Made by a program: the position numbers and the translations under genes | Origin: a virus | Strand: one strand, 5' to 3' | IMG/VR virus record: IMGVR_UViG_3300049847_000435 | Location: 22,103 to 86,102 of that record | Length of the DNA: 64,000 bases | The notes under the pieces: generated by a model | What the model was told of the DNA's origin: nothing | What the model saw: the letters and a program-made list of their open reading frames with translations, nothing else | The model's database searches: none | Part shown: in pieces, positions 2,776-54,189 of the stretch | Layout of the letters: the number at the start of each line of letters is the position of its first letter | Position numbering within the stretch: position 1 is the stretch's first letter

Positions 2776-3335
2776 AAACCTACCAACTCATCTACGCTGA
2801 CCCCGCCTGGTACTATAATGATAAATGCCATTCTGGACAGAGAGGGGCGGGCTACAAATACCCTTGCATGACACTTAACGATATCTGCAACCTACCTATA
2901 CCAGATATAGCCGCTGAAAATTGCCTATTGGCGATGTGGTGGGTGCCTCCTATGCCAGAGGAGGCGATCCGCGTGGTTAACGCTTGGGGATTCAAGCTAA
3001 AGACAATGTGCGGATTTACGTGGCATAAGACCACGAAGAACGGGCACCGTCATTTCGGCATGGGAAACTGGACGCGTGCCAACGCCGAGAATTGTTTGTT
3101 TGCAGTGCGTGGCAAACCAAAGCGAGCCAGCGCTGCGGTATCGCAAATGATCGTCGCGCAAGTTCGCCAGCATAGCCAAAAGCCCGATGAAGCCAGGGAT
3201 CGACTTGTGCAATTGATGGGCGATGTGCCCAGGCTAGAAATGTTCGCCAGGGAAACGACGCCGGGATGGGATGTTTGGGGAAATCAGGTAGATGGATCGA
3301 TTGAGATTCCAGCTATGGAGATGTTTGCGAAATGA
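2772..3335 (+). CDS. MT-A70 family adenine methyltransferase
   Basis: IYADPAW, GMGNWTRANAE, HSQKP, RLEMFAR, GWDVWGNQ; ATGA overlap. Confidence 0.9.
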   Translation: MKTYQLIYADPAWYYNDKCHSGQRGAGYKYPCMTLNDICNLPIPDIAAENCLLAMWWVPPMPEEAIRVVNAWGFKLKTMCGFTWHKTTKNGHRHFGMGNWTRANAENCLFAVRGKPKRASAAVSQMIVAQVRQHSQKPDEARDRLVQLMGDVPRLEMFARETTPGWDVWGNQVDGSIEIPAMEMFAK

Positions 3336-3763
3336 CCATCACGTCACTGCTCATCATCGCCGCCATTATTCTTTTTATCAATCGCAATCTAATCACCCAT
3401 GCTTACCGCCATCGCCACGCCATCTCCAACACCGTCAGTGGTGTCGTCATTCACGTCGTTGACGGTGACACAATCAAGGTCGCCATTGATGGACGCGTCG
3501 AAACCGTCCGCTACATCGGCGTCAACACTCCAGAGATTGGCGAGCGCGGATACAAAGATGCAACCGAAACTAATCGCAGGCTCGTAGAAGGTAAACGCGT
3601 ACGCATGGGGTCAGACAAGCAAGACACTGACAAGTACGGACGAAAGCTCCGCTATGTCTGGGTAGGCAAGAAACTCGTCAATCGAGAGTTGTATCGGCAA
3701 GGGGTAGCAAAGCTAATGATCATCGAACCGAACACGAGACGCATAGGGGAGATTGCATCGTGA
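3332..3763 (+). CDS. thermonuclease (SNase) family protein with N-terminal TM/signal
   Basis: VVDGDTI, VRYIGVNTPE, DKYGRKLRYV. Confidence 0.9.
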   Translation: MTITSLLIIAAIILFINRNLITHAYRHRHAISNTVSGVVIHVVDGDTIKVAIDGRVETVRYIGVNTPEIGERGYKDATETNRRLVEGKRVRMGSDKQDTDKYGRKLRYVWVGKKLVNRELYRQGVAKLMIIEPNTRRIGEIAS

Positions 3764-48803: not shown

Positions 48804-49616
48804 TTACCTTTGAACCATGTACAGCAATAGGCTGGCGATGCCAACCGCGGCAATGAATGATGCTCCAAATATAGCCCACAAAAGCGCTTTATTATCCCTC
48901 TGTGGTGTTGCGTGCTCTGCCCGAAAAATGGTGAGCATCGGCTTTATTTCGTTCCTGACGCTCTCTTCGATGTCGGCAACCCTCGCCTCTAGTATCGCAT
49001 GGCGTTGGATGATTCCGATCTCACCTAGTCTCCCGCCGCCGATTGATCGCTCCAACGCGTCGAGTCTCTGTACAACTTCGTCGCCGCGTCTCACGATTAC
49101 GTTTTTACCTGGCAGGTAGCGAAACCTTGACCCTGTCGGGTCTACCCTGTCCCTTGCCTCTTTGTAGGAGTGCGTCTCGCTTGAGCCCAGAACTGAGTAG
49201 AACATCTCGGAAAAGTCAATCGCATCGTCATTTTCGATAGCCGAAATGGTGAAGATGCAATCTGACTCGCATCGGCTGGCGATGAGTTCGGCGACCTTTT
49301 CAGAGGAACACGTGTTGAAAAAGACGAGTTCTGGCTTCCCTGTCTGGATATACATCACGATCATATCCAGCGGGATGATCTCATTACTCGCAACAAAGCC
49401 ATCTTCGCACAAGTGCCCCGCAAAGTGGATGATATTGAAAGGTTTTTCGTCAAGGATTGCGCGCAGGATGTCTTGTCTGCGCACCGGCTCGGATAGTTCG
49501 CGTGTTGAGTTGTGCGCCGCAATTGCAACAACTTCGCGCTGCAATTGCGGCAATGGCTCAAAGCCAGGCACATCCGTTATCGAGACCTTGACGATCAACA
49601 CTCTCAAGCTTTCCAT
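48804..49616 (-). CDS. CHAT (caspase-like) domain protein with coiled coil and C-terminal TM
   Basis: LPQLQRE, IIHFAGH, LVFFNTC (His-Cys dyad), AIDFSEMFY. Confidence 0.75.
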   Translation of the reverse strand: MESLRVLIVKVSITDVPGFEPLPQLQREVVAIAAHNSTRELSEPVRRQDILRAILDEKPFNIIHFAGHLCEDGFVASNEIIPLDMIVMYIQTGKPELVFFNTCSSEKVAELIASRCESDCIFTISAIENDDAIDFSEMFYSVLGSSETHSYKEARDRVDPTGSRFRYLPGKNVIVRRGDEVVQRLDALERSIGGGRLGEIGIIQRHAILEARVADIEESVRNEIKPMLTIFRAEHATPQRDNKALLWAIFGASFIAAVGIASLLLYMVQR

Positions 49617-50093: not shown

Positions 50094-50167
50094 TACTGCA
50101 CCTCGTTATTTCTCGATCTTAACACTTTTGAATTTACATACGACTTGACATTTGATATAATTAGCCT

Positions 50168-50743
50168 ATGGCAAACAAACGAACGGAGTTAATCACAAAG
50201 CAGTGCTTGGCATGTGGAAATGATTTTAATACATGTCCACCTGGGAAATCTAGCCGTATATGCAGAGCTAAGTACGATCAAGTTTTCTGCTCCAACGCTT
50301 GCAGTTGTAAATCCAGATACAGAAGCGGTATTGACTGTAACGGATTATCAGAAGTAGATGCCGCATACATTGCCGGTTTTCTTGATGGTGAAGGATCGAT
50401 AATGATAATCGGTAGAGCCGACGCATTTATGATACGTGTTTCATTCGCCAACACTAAACGGAATGTATTGGAATGGATTAGAGAGAAGACGGGTGCAGGG
50501 AATATCACTGAAAAATCCAGAGATAATCCGAATCACGCTACTTCGTATATTCTTCTAATCAATTCAAATGCGGCATTCACCCTACTTCAAAAGATTTCAA
50601 AATATCTTATCATCAAGAAGATTCAGTCCGAACTTGCTATCGATTTCTTTGGCAAACTGCGCACCCCCAGACTTAAGTCGGATAGGGAGTGGCAGTCTAC
50701 CGAAAGAGACAGAATGAAAGAACTGAATCGACGTGGCGGGTAA
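50168..50743 (+). CDS. free-standing LAGLIDADG homing endonuclease with N-terminal Zn finger
   Basis: AYIAGFLDGEGSI, YLIIKK.Q; CLAC/FCSNAC; antisense to the late operon, TTGACA...ATAAT upstream. Confidence 0.88.
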   Translation: MANKRTELITKQCLACGNDFNTCPPGKSSRICRAKYDQVFCSNACSCKSRYRSGIDCNGLSEVDAAYIAGFLDGEGSIMIIGRADAFMIRVSFANTKRNVLEWIREKTGAGNITEKSRDNPNHATSYILLINSNAAFTLLQKISKYLIIKKIQSELAIDFFGKLRTPRLKSDREWQSTERDRMKELNRRGG

Positions 50744-50746
50744 ATT

Positions 50747-51609
50747 CTAGCCACCACTCGTAAACGTGAGATCGTAGGTAAACTGTCGTTCTGTTACCAC
50801 CCATTCGGGCGGGCTGGTCATTTCTGCCAGCCTCTTACAGTTCGTTTCCTGTAAGTCCAGACTATCGCACCACCCCATAGGGTGTTTCCCCGCTTAGTCG
50901 TTCAGGCTGCACAGGCTTGCACCTTGCTTGCCCCCTGTTGGCATCACAGCTTCCAAGTCAATCAGAGGAAATTATTCGATGCGGATTACGCCGCAAAGCC
51001 ACAAAAGTTTATGGAATCAGCCGAAGCTACGTTAATCGCAGAGAACAAAGAACGATCCAATAATGTCCCACCGCCCGTCGCCGCTTGGCTAAAGATGCCA
51101 TGCTCGGTGATGGCAGCAGATGCATCAAAAGTCACGGTGCCGACCGAACGCAGAATGTTTGCGGACGGCTGCGTCTTCGTCCCTGTTGCACGCGTATTGT
51201 CGGGATTTAATGCGGTTGTGCTTTCCGTAACAAGCGCAGTTTGCGCCGCCGATTCAGCAGTGCCACCCGTGCCCACTCCATGATAGTTCAGAGTTGTAAT
51301 GTCTGTCGTGCTATTGTCCATATCATCAACAATAAAAGCCACGCCAGCATCGGTCACGACTCGGTAACAGACCGTGCCGTAATCGATCCACTCGCCATTT
51401 GCCTTTCGCACACGGATTGACAATGACGATACGACGGTTGGAATCTCTGTCAGGCGAGAAAAAGCCCACGCCAAATGCCAAAAAAGCCAACCCTTGATAA
51501 ATCCCCATCGTGCTACATTTCTCAACTTCCACGCCAGGGGAGCATCCGTCACTCCTTTGATTAGTTTTGCGCTGAGTGAACCACCTAAGCTGCTCGTACC
51601 ACCTACCAT
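50747..51609 (-). CDS. virion-module protein split by a group I intron (exon 1 51609-51011, exon 2 50786-50747)
   Basis: Splicing joins ...ASADS-I-QFTYDLTFTSGG*, a natural ending after AITEHGIF...TLLDRSLFSAINV. Confidence 0.85.
50787..51010 (-). ncRNA. group I self-splicing intron (224 nt, no ORF)
   Basis: 5' exon ends in U paired to G in P1 (CCAU/GUGG), P3 UUUCCUC/GGGGAAA, P7 GACUA/UAGUC, terminal G. Confidence 0.85.
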
Positions 51610-51630: not shown

Positions 51631-54189
51631 TCACAATTCGCCATCAAGTTTCTTAGTGGACGAGAATAGCCCACTAAGAATACTTTTAGAATCGTGAAAC
51701 TTACCAATAAGTGTGGTTTTCGCCCACGACCCCGACAATTTTGCCTTTCCGATAAACGTACCCAAACCAGAGAACAATCCAACGAGAATCGCCGACGTAG
51801 AGACGTATCCAGACAGGCGCATTGAAACGCTTTTATTGATAGCGCCACCAGTAGAAATCACCCCACTAAGAGCGCGCATAAAAACCCTAATTAACAGAAG
51901 TCCGCCAGCGATGGAGATATTGGCGGATAGCGACCGTATAGCCATCCTCGCTTGATCGCCAGACGAATTAATCAAACCCGCGAAAGTAGTAACTGTTCGC
52001 TTCACTACACTTCCACTCGTGACAATACTGGCAGATAATCCGCTCGCGGTACTTTTCGTTATCGATCCAGTCGTTCCAATTAATCCAGATAGCAGAACGA
52101 GGATAGAGCGAATTGCATTTAAAACGCCAGAGGTAGAGACGGAACCGACCAGTGCTCTTCTTACCTGTTTAACGATTGTCGCCGTTAGTGCAATTGATGC
52201 GGTCAACGTGGTAGCCATTCGCTTAACTACCGCGCCACTCGTAGCAACTGAACCGCTCAACAGCCGCACAAAAACACGAATAGCTGATACAGTTGCCGAT
52301 GATGTGATTGAGCCAAGTAACGATTTGTATATTTGCTTGATTACCGTGCCACTTGCTGCGACCGTGCCACTGAGCGAGCGAGCAAAGCTAATCGTTCTCG
52401 ACAACGCTCCGCCTGTGGCAATCGTCGCCGCCAAACTACGCCATGTTTGTTTTACAACCGTGCCGCCTGTTGTAACCGTGCCACTGAGTGAGCGTAAAAA
52501 TGTCTTTAGCGCCGCCGCCGTGCCACTCGTAGTAATCGAACCGCTAAGAGTTCTCGCTAACAGCTTTATAGCTGTGCCACTGGTAGCAATTGAACCTTGC
52601 AATGCTCGATATGTAGAGCGTGTTAGTGCCCCCGATGTCGTTGCTGTGCCTGCCAGTAATTTAATAAATGTGCGAACAGCGGAAAGCGCACCACTGGTAG
52701 AAATAGAGCCACCAAGCACCTTCAATGTAGCCTTGATAAGCGATGCGCTTGTTGCTAGTGACGCCGCAAGCCCCTTTCGTGTGCTTTTGATTAATGCGCC
52801 TGCGGTAGTAGCTGTACCCGATAAAATCCTAGCTATAACTCTCTGTAACGATCCAGCCAATGCAACTGTACCGCCGACTACTTTCAGCGCCGATCTGGTA
52901 ATTGATGCGCTTGTTGTGACTGTACCTGTAACAGATTTTCTAGCCATGCGAACAAGCGAACCGCTTGACGTAATCCCACCCGATACCAAGCGTCCAAACT
53001 GCCTGAGAGCCGTACCGCTTGTTGTAATTGCACCACTTAACAGCTTAGAGGTAGATTTTATGACGGTTGCCGTTGGCGTTAATGAGCCAGCGATAGCCTT
53101 TCCCGCTCTACGAACCAGCGCACCGCCTGACGACAGCGAACCGGAAACCACTTTCAATGTTCGTATCGTTGCTGCGCCACTGCTCGCTATGGAACCGGAT
53201 AGCGAGCGAATAACCAGTCTCAATCCAGACAATGTTGCTGCTGATGTAATCGAACCAGACAATGAACGAAGCGTCCTTTTCAACAAAGCTCCGCTGGTTG
53301 TGGAGGTTCCCGATAATGCACGTGATATTGATTTAATCAGCGCCCCGCCTGTTGTCGCAGTGCCGGATAAGGAACGATAAATCGCCTTAATCAATCCACC
53401 GGCGGGAGTCATCCCGCCGGTCTTGGATGTTGATGTTTGTTTTACTGGTACGCCAGCAGGAGTCATACCAGCAGTTTTAGATGTCGATGTTTTCTTGACG
53501 GGAGCGCCAGCGGGAGTCATTCCGCCTGATAAAGATAGTAGATTCGCATTACTACCGCTCGCCAACATCGGCAATAAGTAAGGCGACCATGCAATAGGTG
53601 GGCTAGATTCCTCCCACCCAACTGTACCTGTTGCCGTCCAGAGATTCATCGTTCCCGAATCGATCAGATGGTCGCCTGGATTGCCAGCGTGCCATGACAG
53701 CAAATCTACAGTATTGATTGGTACAACGAATTGCATTTCGGCTGTGATGTCATCAGCATTCATCGCTTTATTGAAGACTTTGAAAGCTTCGCCATAAGCG
53801 CTAACATTTTCGCCGTCGTTTGTATTTCCGATAAACAACTTTTGTGCTGCCGCTGTGCCTGACGGATTGCCAGTGACTACAAGCTGACCATTCAGCCAAC
53901 CTTCCATCTGTCCAGCACCGGAGCCACGGCATACTAATGCCATGTGATACCAGCGACCTACTACTAGGTTGAATGATGCCGAAGCACTGCCCGAACTAAA
54001 CACCTTAAAATTTAATGCAGTGTTCGTGTATAGTTCAATGTATGCGCCGGTCGTGTTACCGAAGCTGAAAAAAGCACCGTTCGCCCCAGGGGTAGCGGGC
54101 AACATGAACCATCCCATCATCGTAAAATTGTAGATGGCTGGTAAATTTGTTGTTCTGCTTAGACTGGATGAACTGAATCTGTATGCCAT
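51631..54189 (-). CDS. LamG/concanavalin-like domain + long basic ~20-aa repeat protein
   Basis: FTMMGWF..WYHMALV..WLNGQ; repeats (K/R)xLSG(S/T)xxTSGxL. Confidence 0.75.
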   Translation of the reverse strand: MAYRFSSSSLSRTTNLPAIYNFTMMGWFMLPATPGANGAFFSFGNTTGAYIELYTNTALNFKVFSSGSASASFNLVVGRWYHMALVCRGSGAGQMEGWLNGQLVVTGNPSGTAAAQKLFIGNTNDGENVSAYGEAFKVFNKAMNADDITAEMQFVVPINTVDLLSWHAGNPGDHLIDSGTMNLWTATGTVGWEESSPPIAWSPYLLPMLASGSNANLLSLSGGMTPAGAPVKKTSTSKTAGMTPAGVPVKQTSTSKTGGMTPAGGLIKAIYRSLSGTATTGGALIKSISRALSGTSTTSGALLKRTLRSLSGSITSAATLSGLRLVIRSLSGSIASSGAATIRTLKVVSGSLSSGGALVRRAGKAIAGSLTPTATVIKSTSKLLSGAITTSGTALRQFGRLVSGGITSSGSLVRMARKSVTGTVTTSASITRSALKVVGGTVALAGSLQRVIARILSGTATTAGALIKSTRKGLAASLATSASLIKATLKVLGGSISTSGALSAVRTFIKLLAGTATTSGALTRSTYRALQGSIATSGTAIKLLARTLSGSITTSGTAAALKTFLRSLSGTVTTGGTVVKQTWRSLAATIATGGALSRTISFARSLSGTVAASGTVIKQIYKSLLGSITSSATVSAIRVFVRLLSGSVATSGAVVKRMATTLTASIALTATIVKQVRRALVGSVSTSGVLNAIRSILVLLSGLIGTTGSITKSTASGLSASIVTSGSVVKRTVTTFAGLINSSGDQARMAIRSLSANISIAGGLLLIRVFMRALSGVISTGGAINKSVSMRLSGYVSTSAILVGLFSGLGTFIGKAKLSGSWAKTTLIGKFHDSKSILSGLFSSTKKLDGEL

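What the first reader, a model, noticed from the sequence alone, without database searches (positions are those of the whole stretch)
50747..51609. Hidden group I intron splits a virion-module gene
Seen: the ORF track ends this gene at ...SADSINFCGFAA*, but 224 nt further on the minus strand reads A CAG TTT ACC TAC GAT CTC ACG TTT ACG AGT GGT GGC TAG. Removing 51010-50787 rebuilds ATA (Ile) and the in-frame end QFTYDLTFTSGG*. The removed piece has group I hallmarks: exon U paired to G in P1 (CCAU/GUGG), P3 UUUCCUC/GGGGAAA, P7 GACUA...UAGUC, P9 hairpins and a terminal G. Established: most characterised phage group I introns sit in DNA-metabolism, terminase or lysin genes. Inference: this small structural protein needs splicing to gain its last 13 residues.
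Basis: partly seen in the sequence, partly recalled or inferred. Interest (0 to 1): 0.85.

Follow-up and report, generated by a model that had tools for sequence, protein, structure and literature searches.

The report
Group I intron in tail-fibre gene
A 224-base self-splicing-type (group I) intron interrupts the last 13 codons of a phage tail-fibre-like gene, next to a separate homing-endonuclease gene; this is a well-supported but ordinary kind of mobile element.

Summary
The minus-strand ORF 51609..50986 stops 7 codons into an insert. Removing 51010..50787 joins ...ADSI to QFTYDLTFTSGG*, which is exactly how uninterrupted homologues end (21 of 35 proteins fetched; 84 of 86 DNA loci with a readable site).

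The insert is a group I intron.
- Rfam gives no hit.
- A covariance model built from 53 relatives, without the window, hits 50974..50858 at 98.1 bits, E 9e-19.
- On 54 sequences the P3-P4-P5-P6-P7-P8 core shows 97% paired cells and compensatory changes in 20 of 35 pairs.
- The exon ends in U, opposite G of the guide, and the intron ends in G.
- Exon 2 changes are all synonymous in three intron-bearing alleles.
- The same model finds the RT-PCR-proven intron of mycobacteriophage Baka's tail gene.

No spliced RNA was seen, but only contigs of four runs could be laid.

The intron is 97-98% identical between alleles whose exon 1 DNA is only 71-78% identical. A convergent free-standing LAGLIDADG gene (50168..50743) lies 3 nt from the stop. 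Collaborative homing is plausible, with indirect support only.

Introns in phage capsid and tail genes are already published, so this is a new member of a known kind. Earlier AI notes of this scan had already flagged relatives of this intron family on other DNA.

The parts
51011..51609 (-). Exon 1 of the tail-fibre-like gene (codons 1-199 plus the first two bases of Ile200). Its last base, U at 51011, is the 5' splice site.
   Evidence: ORF. Homologues. phrog_5417 at 5.7e-10. Fold.
50787..51010 (-). ORF-less group I intron, 224 nt, ending in G at 50787.
   Evidence: Absent from 84 of 86 homologous loci with a readable site. Family covariance model hit. Covariation.
50999..51014 (-). P1. Exon CCAU (51014..51011) pairs with guide GUGG (51002..50999), giving U.G at the splice site. 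The helix can extend by intron AA / UU, with a loop ACUU.
   Evidence: Read. In L141 and L145 the changes here fall only in the loop (positions 4 and 5). Relative L001 has the analogous GUGGAU| / GUCCAC pairing.
50986..50988 (-). In-frame UAA, 7 codons into the intron. It ends the 207-aa track ORF.
   Evidence: In-frame stops early in introns are described as common in PMC3984707 (passages read).
50981..50994 (-). P2 hairpin GCGG-CGUAAU-CCGC.
   Evidence: and the MFE fold. Invariant in the three alleles, so no covariation test was possible.
50965..50971 (-). P3, 5' strand UUUCCUC.
   Evidence: 7 of 7 pairs have changes on both sides among 54 sequences.
50934..50957 (-). P4 (CUUG 50957..50954 with CAGG 50937..50934) enclosing J4/5 GAA and a reduced P5 (GC-UGUGAU-GC).
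   Evidence: P4: 2 of 4 pairs have double changes and 100% of cells are paired. P5: 3 of 5 pairs have double changes in the family, but the window's own P5 is only about 2 bp.
50904..50933 (-). P6, a long hairpin capped by a GCAA loop.
   Evidence: 3 of 10 pairs have double changes and 99.4% of cells are paired. The same hairpin appears in the MFE fold.
50895..50899 (-). P7, 5' strand GACUA. It forms a pseudoknot with respect to P3.
   Evidence: 100% paired; the A-U pair changes to G-C in 6 of 54 sequences.
50885..50891 (-). P3, 3' strand GGGGAAA.
50871..50884 (-). P8 hairpin CACCC-UAUG-GGGUG.
   Evidence: 4 of 4 pairs have double changes. In some relatives an ORF is inserted here.
50860..50870 (-). 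J8/7 GUGCGA followed by the P7 3' strand UAGUC.
50799..50855 (-). Three 3' hairpins: P9 (50855..50834), P9a (50832..50812) and P9b (50810..50799).
   Evidence: In L145 two compensatory pairs fall here: positions 159 A>G with 174 U>C, and 181 C>U with 197 G>A.
50747..50786 (-). Exon 2: the third base of Ile200, then QFTYDLTFTSGG and the stop codon.
   Evidence: Identical peptide in window, L141 and L145. All changed codons are synonymous (3/0 and 5/0). It matches the ends of the intact homologues.
50168..50743 (+). Free-standing single-motif LAGLIDADG homing-endonuclease gene (191 aa, Cys-rich N-terminus). It converges on the host gene, with the two stop codons 3 nt apart.
   Evidence: PF00961 at 26.7 bits (cut-off 23.1). 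phrog_5046 at 8.7e-20. Homologues occur beside intronless alleles.
50133..50161 (+). Promoter-like site TTTACA-17-TATAAT with a TG, ending 7 nt before the endonuclease ATG.
   Evidence: 11 of 12 matches. This is a consensus scan only.

Best explanation
The gene at 51609..50747 (minus strand) encodes a 212-residue tail-fibre-like virion protein. It is interrupted, after the second base of the Ile200 codon, by a 224-nt ORF-less group I intron (51010..50787).

Inferred from the group I fold and its known chemistry: in the late transcript the RNA folds into the P1-P9 ribozyme. A guanosine attacks after the exon U (51011), which is paired to G of the internal guide. The freed exon then attacks after the terminal G (50787). 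This joins ...GAU UCC AU|A CAG UUU... so that the last beta-strand and 12 C-terminal residues are translated. The UAA seven codons into the intron stops ribosomes on unspliced RNA.

At the DNA level the intron is a mobile element. It is nearly identical in alleles whose coding DNA has diverged by 21-29%. Its spread is probably helped by the LAGLIDADG endonuclease gene lying 3 nt beyond the stop codon. The proposed route is cleavage of intron-less alleles at or near the insertion site, followed by repair from an intron-bearing genome (collaborative or trans homing).

Shown here: the exact junction, the fold with covariation, selection on exon 2, and the high conservation of the intron. Inferred: the catalysis, and the endonuclease's target.
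For: Junction.
- 21 of 35 fetched homologues run ...DSI|QFTY... to the same end, and five have the identical 12 residues.
- 8 of 8 genome loci are uninterrupted.
- 84 of 86 loci with a readable site are uninterrupted.
- Intron-less DNA reads GAT TCC ATT CAG TTT.

Fold.
- On 54 family sequences 97.1% of cells are paired, against 79.6% in shuffles and 37-45% with slid partners.
- 20 of 35 pairs have changes on both sides.
- The covariation score is 0.509 against 0.179, reached by 0 of 500 shuffles.
- Model R1, built without the window, hits 50974..50858 at 98.1 bits, E 9.4e-19. It is the only hit in the window and in the 86-kb record.
- R1 finds 126 matches in 100 family loci, many of them outside the pattern used to collect the loci.

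Group I boundary rules.
- In the window, U precedes the 5' splice site and G ends the intron.
- The same holds in a relative that splits a P22-type coat gene. Its junction ...TQFHVD|TQF... was checked against the uninterrupted Xanthomonas phage PBR31 capsid gene.

Link to a proven intron. R1 hits the RT-PCR-verified 265-bp intron of the Baka minor tail gene at 22.1 bits, E 2.5e-4 (paper PMC3706429, passages read). Rfam RF00028 also hits that intron, at 28.6 bits, E 3.5e-5.

Selection. All exon 2 differences are synonymous (3/0 and 5/0). Four of the 7 intron differences in L145 form two compensatory pairs.

Need for the join. In the AlphaFold model of intact homologue P0004 (pLDDT 88) strand 199-209 spans the junction.

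Mobility. The intron is 220/224 and 217/224 identical, against 470/599 and 423/599 for exon 1 and 284/377 for the endonuclease gene.

Endonuclease link. Among intron-less loci with at least 800 nt downstream, the base just after the insertion site is A in 4 of 6 loci that carry the endonuclease and in 5 of 48 that lack it (one-sided Fisher p = 0.005, not corrected for relatedness). All 3 intron-bearing alleles also have A there.
Against: - No Rfam group I hit at gathering score, nor at E <= 10 on 1.6 kb or on 251 nt.
- No spliced form was seen. Contigs from four runs, two on record as metatranscriptomes and a third labelled RNA-Seq that the tool judges probably DNA, carry the unspliced arrangement and show no joints. 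Contigs drop rare forms and may derive from DNA.
- The MFE fold is not unusually stable (z = -1.49).
- The window's P5 is reduced to about 2 bp, and 2 P5 pairs are non-standard in the model alignment.
- P10 is weak.
- For the homing part: the endonuclease gene has diverged as much as the host gene (75%), so it did not travel with the near-identical intron. Intron-plus/endonuclease-minus alleles exist (L141; X20 contig), and so do intron-minus/endonuclease-plus alleles (L031, L159, L170, L174, L208, L219).
- The A association rests on 6 loci, and 2 of them lack it.
Confidence: 0.9

Rival explanations
1. The intron is genuine, but the neighbouring LAGLIDADG gene has nothing to do with it. On this view the endonuclease is an independent free-standing selfish gene that targets the intergenic region after the tail-fibre gene. 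The intron then spreads by other means: recombination between co-infecting phages, reverse splicing, or another endonuclease acting in trans.
For: All four combinations of intron and endonuclease occur. The endonuclease gene lies in either orientation and 8 to about 200 nt from the stop in intron-less loci. Window and L145 endonuclease DNA is 75% identical, while their introns are 97% identical.
Against: The endonuclease stop lies about 44 nt from the insertion site. The silent A at +1 is enriched in endonuclease-bearing intron-less loci (4/6 against 5/48). That is expected if the site is the target and needs protection. The published precedent is S-PM2 F-CphI with the psbA intron (PMC6083498, passages read).
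Confidence: 0.45
2. The insert is a dead intron or other insertion that no longer splices. The phage would then make a truncated 207-residue protein, and exon 2 would be a decaying remnant.
For: No spliced RNA was seen. P5 is reduced. There is no Rfam hit.
Against: Exon 2 is intact and in phase in three alleles whose exon 1 DNA differs by 21-29%, and all 8 changed codons in it are synonymous. Intron changes are compensatory. Truncation would remove the last strand of the beta-sandwich. The core scores in the middle of the family's range (98 bits, within 54-134).
Confidence: 0.06
3. The C-terminus is reached by something other than RNA splicing, such as ribosomal bypassing or a DNA rearrangement. 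On this view the group I-like structure is coincidental.
For: Only that splicing itself has not been observed.
Against: A 224-nt gap is far longer than known translational hops (from general knowledge, not tested). The structure is supported by covariation in 20 of 35 pairs. It is shared with an RT-PCR-verified intron. DNA contigs from other samples keep the insert.
Confidence: 0.01

Closest known systems
Group I introns of Cluster J mycobacteriophages: the 265-bp ORF-less intron in the Baka/Optimus minor tail gene and the LittleE capsid intron (Pope et al. 2013, PMC3706429; passages read)
   Same: A small ORF-less intron in a tail gene. The exon ends in U and the intron in G. It was found by comparison with uninterrupted relatives. 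My family model R1 aligns to the Baka intron over its full length (22.1 bits, E 2.5e-4). The LittleE intron is associated with a LAGLIDADG gene on the opposite strand.
   Different: Baka's splicing is proven by RT-PCR; here it is not. The sequences are only distantly alike. Rfam sees Baka weakly (28.6 bits) and the window not at all. Here the LAGLIDADG gene lies outside the intron, beyond the stop codon.
Collaborative homing: cyanophage S-PM2 psbA intron with the free-standing endonuclease F-CphI (Zeng, Bonocora and Shub 2009, as described in PMC6083498 and PMC3984707; passages read)
   Same: [quoted passage not shown] Here the stop-to-insertion-site distance is about 44 nt. A silent variant at the insertion site is enriched in endonuclease carriers.
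   Different: The endonuclease family differs (LAGLIDADG here, Endo VII-like there). The host gene differs (tail fibre here, psbA there). Cleavage at the insertion site and protection by the intron are untested here.
Trans homing in T4: mobE and the nrdB intron / I-TevIII (PMC2790892; abstract seen in the search listing)
   Same: A free-standing endonuclease beside an intron-bearing gene could mobilise the neighbouring intron by co-conversion.
   Different: In T4 the intron carries a defunct endonuclease gene; here it is ORF-less. Here the endonuclease and intron sequences show different degrees of divergence.
Rfam RF00028 (Intron_gpI)
   Same: The topology is the same: P1-P9 with the P3/P7 pseudoknot, as supported.
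   Different: No match for the window, and none at gathering score in 18 relatives' loci. The NAR 2025 Bastillevirinae paper (PMC11878797, passages read) states that the Rfam and GISSD models are incomplete and may miss phage variants.

Membership tests
Group I intron | Conserved core: P3-P8 with the P3/P7 pseudoknot, the P4-P5-P6 domain, and P8 between P3' and P7'. | tested here: met
   35 pairs, 97.1% of cells paired, 20 pairs with double changes (P3 7/7, P8 4/4, P4 2/4, P5 3/5, P6 3/10, P7 1/5). The slid controls give 37-45%; the window fits the model built without it at 98.1 bits.
Group I intron | The last exon base is U, paired with G of the internal guide in P1. | tested here: met
   exon ...CCAU| opposite GUGG; relative L001 has GUGGAU| opposite GUCCAC, with its junction fixed by an uninterrupted homologue. 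This is sequence reading only; P1 covariation was not tested across the family.
Group I intron | The intron ends in G (omega-G). | tested here: met
   ...AACAGAACG|ACAG in the window, L141 and L145....GGAUG|ACAC in L001. The alternative boundary shifted by one base would give A/A and breaks the rule.
Group I intron | Exact removal restores the conserved reading frame. | tested here: met
Group I intron | Guanosine-initiated self-splicing, or the ligated exons seen in RNA. | tested here: inconclusive
   no joints in contigs of 4 runs (2 on record as RNA, a third probably DNA). Raw reads were not available and in vitro splicing cannot be tested with these tools.
Group I intron | Recognition by the curated model RF00028. 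This is a recogniser, not a defining property. | tested here: not met
   no hit; the model scores the experimentally spliced Baka intron at 28.6 bits, below its gathering score of 50. A miss is therefore not evidence against membership.
Group I intron subgroup (IA-IE) | Peripheral elements such as P7.1/P7.2, P5abc and P2.1. | tested here: inconclusive
   Read: there is no room for P7.1/P7.2 (J7/3 is 3 nt), P5 is a simple hairpin, P2 is present, and there are three 3' hairpins. No subgroup models (GISSD) were at hand, so the subgroup is left open.
LAGLIDADG homing endonuclease | The LAGLIDADG motif and domain. | tested here: met
   PF00961 at 26.7 bits (cut-off 23.1) and PF14528 at 23.0 bits (cut-off 22.5). 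Motif YIAGFLDGEGS. There is a single motif, so a homodimer is expected (general knowledge).
Collaborative homing pair | The free-standing endonuclease cuts intron-less alleles at the intron insertion site, and the intron protects its own genome. | not testable with these tools
   Indirect evidence only: the 44-nt distance, and A at +1 in 4/6 endonuclease-plus against 5/48 endonuclease-minus intron-less loci.
Phage tail fibre / tail-collar fibre distal domain (host gene) | Fold similarity to solved or predicted fibre domains. | tested here: met
   9h4p_BD (Haloferax tailed virus 1 tail) at E 1.2e-5, prob 1.00; 8jou_a (phage GP4 fiber) at E 1.5e-2; 58 BFVD matches at E <= 0.001, including proteins named tail fiber or tail-collar fiber. 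The model is of homologue P0004 (90% identical to the window's ORF), not of the window's own spliced product.

The most novel reading that the evidence does not exclude
The single-motif LAGLIDADG enzyme recognises the intron insertion site GATTCCAT|TCAGTTT of intron-less tail-fibre alleles. Genomes that carry the enzyme escape self-cleavage either by the silent ATA variant or by the intron. That would make this a LAGLIDADG-driven collaborative-homing pair in a virion gene. More broadly, the intron would belong to a large family that Rfam did not recognise in any locus tested (the window and 18 relatives). Ten of 20 sampled members of that family sit in major-capsid genes of environmental phages. 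This contradicts the view that phage introns are confined to DNA-metabolism genes.
Probability: 0.35. Interest if true: 0.55.

Novelty: new member of a known kind. Interest (0 to 1): 0.4.

Why it matters
For annotation: the gene is called as a truncated 207-aa ORF here and in at least 13 database proteins, which gives a wrong C-terminus for a tail-fibre-like protein. The standard recogniser (Rfam RF00028) did not find this intron or any in the 18 relatives' loci tested, so automatic pipelines will keep splitting capsid, tail and RNR genes in metagenomic phages. The model built here (R1) gave 126 matches in 100 loci.

For biology: the locus offers natural alleles in all four intron/endonuclease combinations. 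It also offers a candidate immunity variant at the insertion site. Together these make a clean test bed for how ORF-less introns and free-standing endonucleases cooperate. The kind of element itself is already documented, so a specialist would not be surprised.

Tried and rejected
- Rfam at three settings on the window and at gathering score on 18 relatives' loci: no group I hit.
- The search for related loci on viral contigs with the single protein: nothing.
- blastn against phages gave a single hit, which turned out to be the intron core inside a split P22-type coat gene.
- RNA evidence: one search for runs and one laying of reads gave no joints. Parts of the stretch without cover in those runs say nothing.
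- I first guessed that relative L001 splices after TTCCAT, as the window does. Comparison with the uninterrupted PBR31 capsid gene showed the junction is six bases further on, after GTGGAT, so I dropped that idea and the supposed shared target.
- I considered P4 = CUUG with the invariant CAAG of GCAAGCAAGG. I rejected it because the variable CUUG positions covary with the CA(G/A)G segment before P6.
- A 4-nt inverted repeat (CTGA...TCAG) around the insertion site looked like a possible dimer site. It is too short to mean anything and was not pursued.
- The subgroup (IA-IE) could not be assigned.
- Before alignment A2, 23 of 77 unique core segments were dropped: L005, L007, L011, L038, L073, L074, L076, L088, L090, L091, L101, L108, L114, L115, L116, L120, L123, L124, L132, L133, L137, L138 and L139. 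They were mis-anchored by my regular expression or have an ORF in P8. A further 12 loci had no anchors at all.
- Nine of 100 loci gave no R1 match, by my reading of the table (L009, L014, L039, L051, L054, L059, L092, L096, L105). L009 and L014 showed no further similarity to the intron. The other seven had no anchors and were not examined individually, although L051 shows an intron-like 3' half.
- The Fisher test dropped loci with less than 800 nt downstream, the two intron-bearing loci, and exact duplicates of the 42-nt site context. It is not corrected for relatedness.
- Supplementary files of the papers were not opened. Those of PMC11878797 (tables of split phage genes) may bear on how common structural-gene introns are.
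- Literature claims rest on three searches and on passages read, not whole texts.
Full report
**What is there.** The window is part of an 86,102-base IMG/VR virus record, linear, estimated 81% complete by CheckV. On the minus strand an ORF runs 51609..50986 and ends ...SADSINFCGFAA*. Forty bases of the same strand, 50786..50747, read A CAG TTT ACC TAC GAT CTC ACG TTT ACG AGT GGT GGC TAG. Taking out 51010..50787 (224 nt) gives ...GAT TCC AT|A CAG..., that is ...ADSI-QFTYDLTFTSGG* (script translation).

**The junction is real.** A protein search gave 2738 relatives at E <= 0.001 among 3246 candidates. I fetched 35 of them.
- 21 run through ...DSI QFTY... to an ...SGG or ...SGS end. Five of these (P0004, P0005, P0008, P0012, P0022) end in exactly QFTYDLTFTSGG.
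- 13 stop with ...DSI(N/K/GVK)LCG(F/L)AA, or NFCGFAA in the window's own ORF.
- One (P0046) stops with ...DSIFSGALV.
- Every deviant end begins right after DSI.

At the DNA level, 8 of 8 loci from species-representative genomes are uninterrupted. Of the 88 loci from genomes and metagenomes taken together, 86 had a readable site. Of those, 84 are uninterrupted and 2 (L141, L145) carry the insert. Close intron-less alleles read GAT TCC ATT CAG TTT ACC (L143, L144, L146). L141 and L145 have the same 224-nt insert at the same place. They show that the INLCGFAA-type proteins are intron-bearing alleles, not an alternative natural C-terminus.

**It is a group I intron, although Rfam does not see it.** Rfam 15 gave only a tRNA at gathering score on the whole window. 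It gave no group I match at E <= 10 on 1.6 kb or on 251 nt.

I therefore looked for relatives.
- A blastn search of phage records hit one place. The core 50973..50855 matches, at 76%, a stretch lying between two CDS that are both annotated 'P22 coat protein' in MW202674.1.
- From these I cut 77 unique core segments. I kept the 54 that my anchors framed cleanly (the 23 dropped are listed under Tried and rejected) and aligned them (A2).

On that alignment the canonical arrangement P3, P4, P5, P4', P6, P7, P3', P8, P7' gives the following.
- 97.1% of cells are paired, against 79.6% in shuffles and 37-45% when partners are slid by 1-3 columns.
- 20 of 35 pairs have changes on both sides.
- The covariation score is 0.509 against 0.179, reached by 0 of 500 shuffles.
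- Per helix, the pairs with double changes are: P3 7 of 7, P8 4 of 4, P4 2 of 4, P5 3 of 5, P6 3 of 10, P7 1 of 5.
- The columns of the collecting pattern (P6 3' strand, J6/7, P7 5' strand) are invariant by construction. P3, P4, P5 and P8 were not part of any pattern.

A covariance model built from the other 53 sequences (R1) hits the window once, at 50974..50858 on the minus strand, over its full length, at 98.1 bits, E 9.4e-19. It hits once in the whole record. Over 100 family loci it gives 126 matches at E <= 0.001, in 91 loci by my reading of the table. Several loci hold two or three introns that my patterns had not found.

**Boundaries obey the group I rules.**
- In the window the exon ends ...CCAU, which can pair with GUGG 9-12 nt into the intron (U.G at the splice site). 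The intron ends in G.
- The only other boundary compatible with the homologues, one base to the right, would put A at both positions.
- For the coat-gene relative L001 I fixed the junction independently. The uninterrupted major capsid protein of Xanthomonas phage PBR31 reads ...TQFHVD TQFS.... L001's exon 1 reads ...TQFHVD and its exon 2 reads TQFT....
- That places the splice site after GUGGAU, opposite GUCCAC in the intron. Again this gives a U.G pair and a terminal G.

**Link to an experimentally spliced intron.** Pope et al. 2013 (PMC3706429, passages read) showed by RT-PCR that a 265-bp ORF-less intron is spliced from the minor tail gene of mycobacteriophage Baka. Model R1, with filters off, aligns to that intron over its full length at 22.1 bits, E 2.5e-4 in 851 bases. 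Rfam RF00028 also finds it, at 28.6 bits, below its gathering score of 50. So the window's family shares its architecture with a proven tail-gene intron. Rfam's silence is a limit of the model. The Bastillevirinae intron paper says the same of Rfam and GISSD (PMC11878797, passages read).

**Selection shows that exon 2 is used.** I compared the window with L141 and with L145.
- Exon 1 DNA is 470/599 and 423/599 identical, with 98 and 101 synonymous and 16 and 35 non-synonymous codon differences.
- Exon 2 encodes the identical peptide, and all its changed codons are synonymous (3/0 and 5/0).
- The intron is 220/224 and 217/224 identical.
- Of the seven differences in L145, four form two compensatory pairs in the P9 and P9a hairpins. 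The rest lie in loops or at the end of P5.

**The host gene.** Pfam finds nothing. PHROGs gives phrog_5417 (unknown function, 5.7e-10) and weak hits to a virion structural protein and a tail fibre family. Typed joined sequences are barred, so I modelled the natural intact homologue P0004 (90% identical to the window's ORF, same C-terminus) with 84 aligned relatives. The result has pLDDT 88.0 and pTM 0.82.
- The model has an N-terminal helical segment followed by a beta-sandwich.
- Its last strand (residues 199-209) spans the junction at residue 200.
- Foldseek's best solved match is a chain of the Haloferax tailed virus 1 tail (9h4p_BD, E 1.2e-5). The next is a fibre of phage GP4 (E 1.5e-2).
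- In BFVD 58 matches have E <= 0.001, several of them named tail fiber or tail-collar fiber.
- The gene lies directly after an 852-aa repetitive protein in a run of large minus-strand ORFs.

'Virion-module gene' is therefore supported, and 'tail-fibre-like' is the best name.

**RNA.** One run holds the whole stretch and may be the source sample. Many others hold about 15% of its words. I laid contigs of four runs and found no joints. Contigs 88-95% alike carry endonuclease gene, exon 2, intron and exon 1 unspliced. This includes contigs from two libraries on record as metatranscriptomic (X19, X20). Contigs cannot show rare forms and may come from DNA, so this neither supports nor refutes splicing. 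One X20 contig runs from the intron through exon 2 directly into a sequence resembling the start of the next gene. That is a relative with the intron but without the endonuclease gene.

**The neighbouring endonuclease.**
- ORF 50168..50743 on the plus strand passes Pfam's LAGLIDADG_1 cut-off (26.7 against 23.1 bits) and matches phrog_5046 at 8.7e-20.
- Its stop is 3 nt from the stop of exon 2, about 44 nt from the insertion site.
- A promoter-like site (11 of 12 matches, with TG) ends 7 nt before its ATG.
- Homologues lie just downstream of six intron-less alleles, in either orientation: L031, L159, L170, L174, L208 and L219.
- L145 has both intron and endonuclease. L141 has the intron only. 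So all four combinations exist.
- The window and L145 endonuclease genes are 284/377 identical. They have diverged about as much as the host gene and much more than the intron.

One pattern ties the endonuclease to the insertion site. The base right after the site is the third base of the Ile codon. Among intron-less loci with at least 800 nt downstream, after dropping duplicates, it is A in 4 of 6 endonuclease-bearing loci and in 5 of 48 others (one-sided Fisher p = 0.005, uncorrected for relatedness). It is A in all three intron-bearing alleles. This is what self-protection by a silent target-site change would look like. It fits 'collaborative homing' as described for S-PM2 F-CphI and the psbA intron (PMC6083498 and PMC3984707, passages read). 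It is indirect evidence and rests on few loci.

**The family and what is known.** I checked the upstream exon ORFs of 20 diverse family members.
- 10 match major head protein PHROGs, across five different families.
- 5 match ribonucleotide reductases.
- 1 matches the large terminase.
- 4 match nothing.

The P22-type coat genes (L001 group) are additional to these.

Introns in phage capsid and tail genes are in print. Examples are the Cluster J phages and, as cited there, Tuc2009 (PMC3706429), and Twort orf142, later identified as a tail tube gene (PMC11878797). My three literature searches did not turn up this family or this gene, but they cover open-access text only.

Earlier AI notes of this scan, which are unchecked leads, had already flagged relatives of this intron on other DNA. 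One follow-up called it a widespread family that Rfam misses.

**Verdict.** This is a genuine, precisely mapped group I intron in a tail-fibre-like gene (confidence 0.9). Splicing is inferred, not observed. The homing partnership with the LAGLIDADG gene is plausible (about 0.4-0.5). It is a new member of a known kind, of moderate interest mainly for annotation and as a test bed.

Noticed in passing
L034, L055, L065, L069, L098, L099, L103, L107, L109 (IMG/VR loci): Model R1 finds three separate introns of this family within 1-3 kb in each of these loci. Where the upstream ORF was checked (L065, L069 and L109 were not), the genes are major-capsid genes. Multiple sibling introns in one structural gene seem common.
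   Followed up: partly
window 50133-50168 (+): The promoter-like site (TTTACA-17-TG-TATAAT, 11 of 12) ends 7 nt before the endonuclease ATG, which suggests a leaderless or near-leaderless mRNA. No terminator-like site separates the convergent genes, so its transcript could run antisense into exon 2 and the intron.
   Followed up: no
proteins P0046, P0040, P0051: More distant homologues also break right after DSI but with other read-through ends (DSIFSGALV, DSIGVKLCGLAA). This points to different intron variants, or other inserts, at the same site.
   Followed up: no
L031 (contig of a Richelia sp. MAG), about 2846-3373: An intron-less homologue of the gene, with an unusual DQITFQW site, is followed on the same strand by a homologous Cys-rich LAGLIDADG gene.
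   Followed up: partly
window 51631-54189 (-): The 852-aa protein directly upstream is built of many repeats of an approximately 'SLSG..T.SGAL.K' unit. It is probably a fibre or shaft protein and was not analysed.
   Followed up: no
L005/L021, L007, L011, L073, L076, L081, L136: In these family members, which sit in ribonucleotide reductase genes where the host was checked (for L081), the sequence after P3' runs into a long insert in place of the short P8 loop. This is presumably an intron-encoded endonuclease ORF. The ORFs were not identified.
   Followed up: no
window 48804-49616 (-): The 270-aa ORF two genes downstream has a weak CHAT-domain match (E 0.022, below the cut-off).
   Followed up: no
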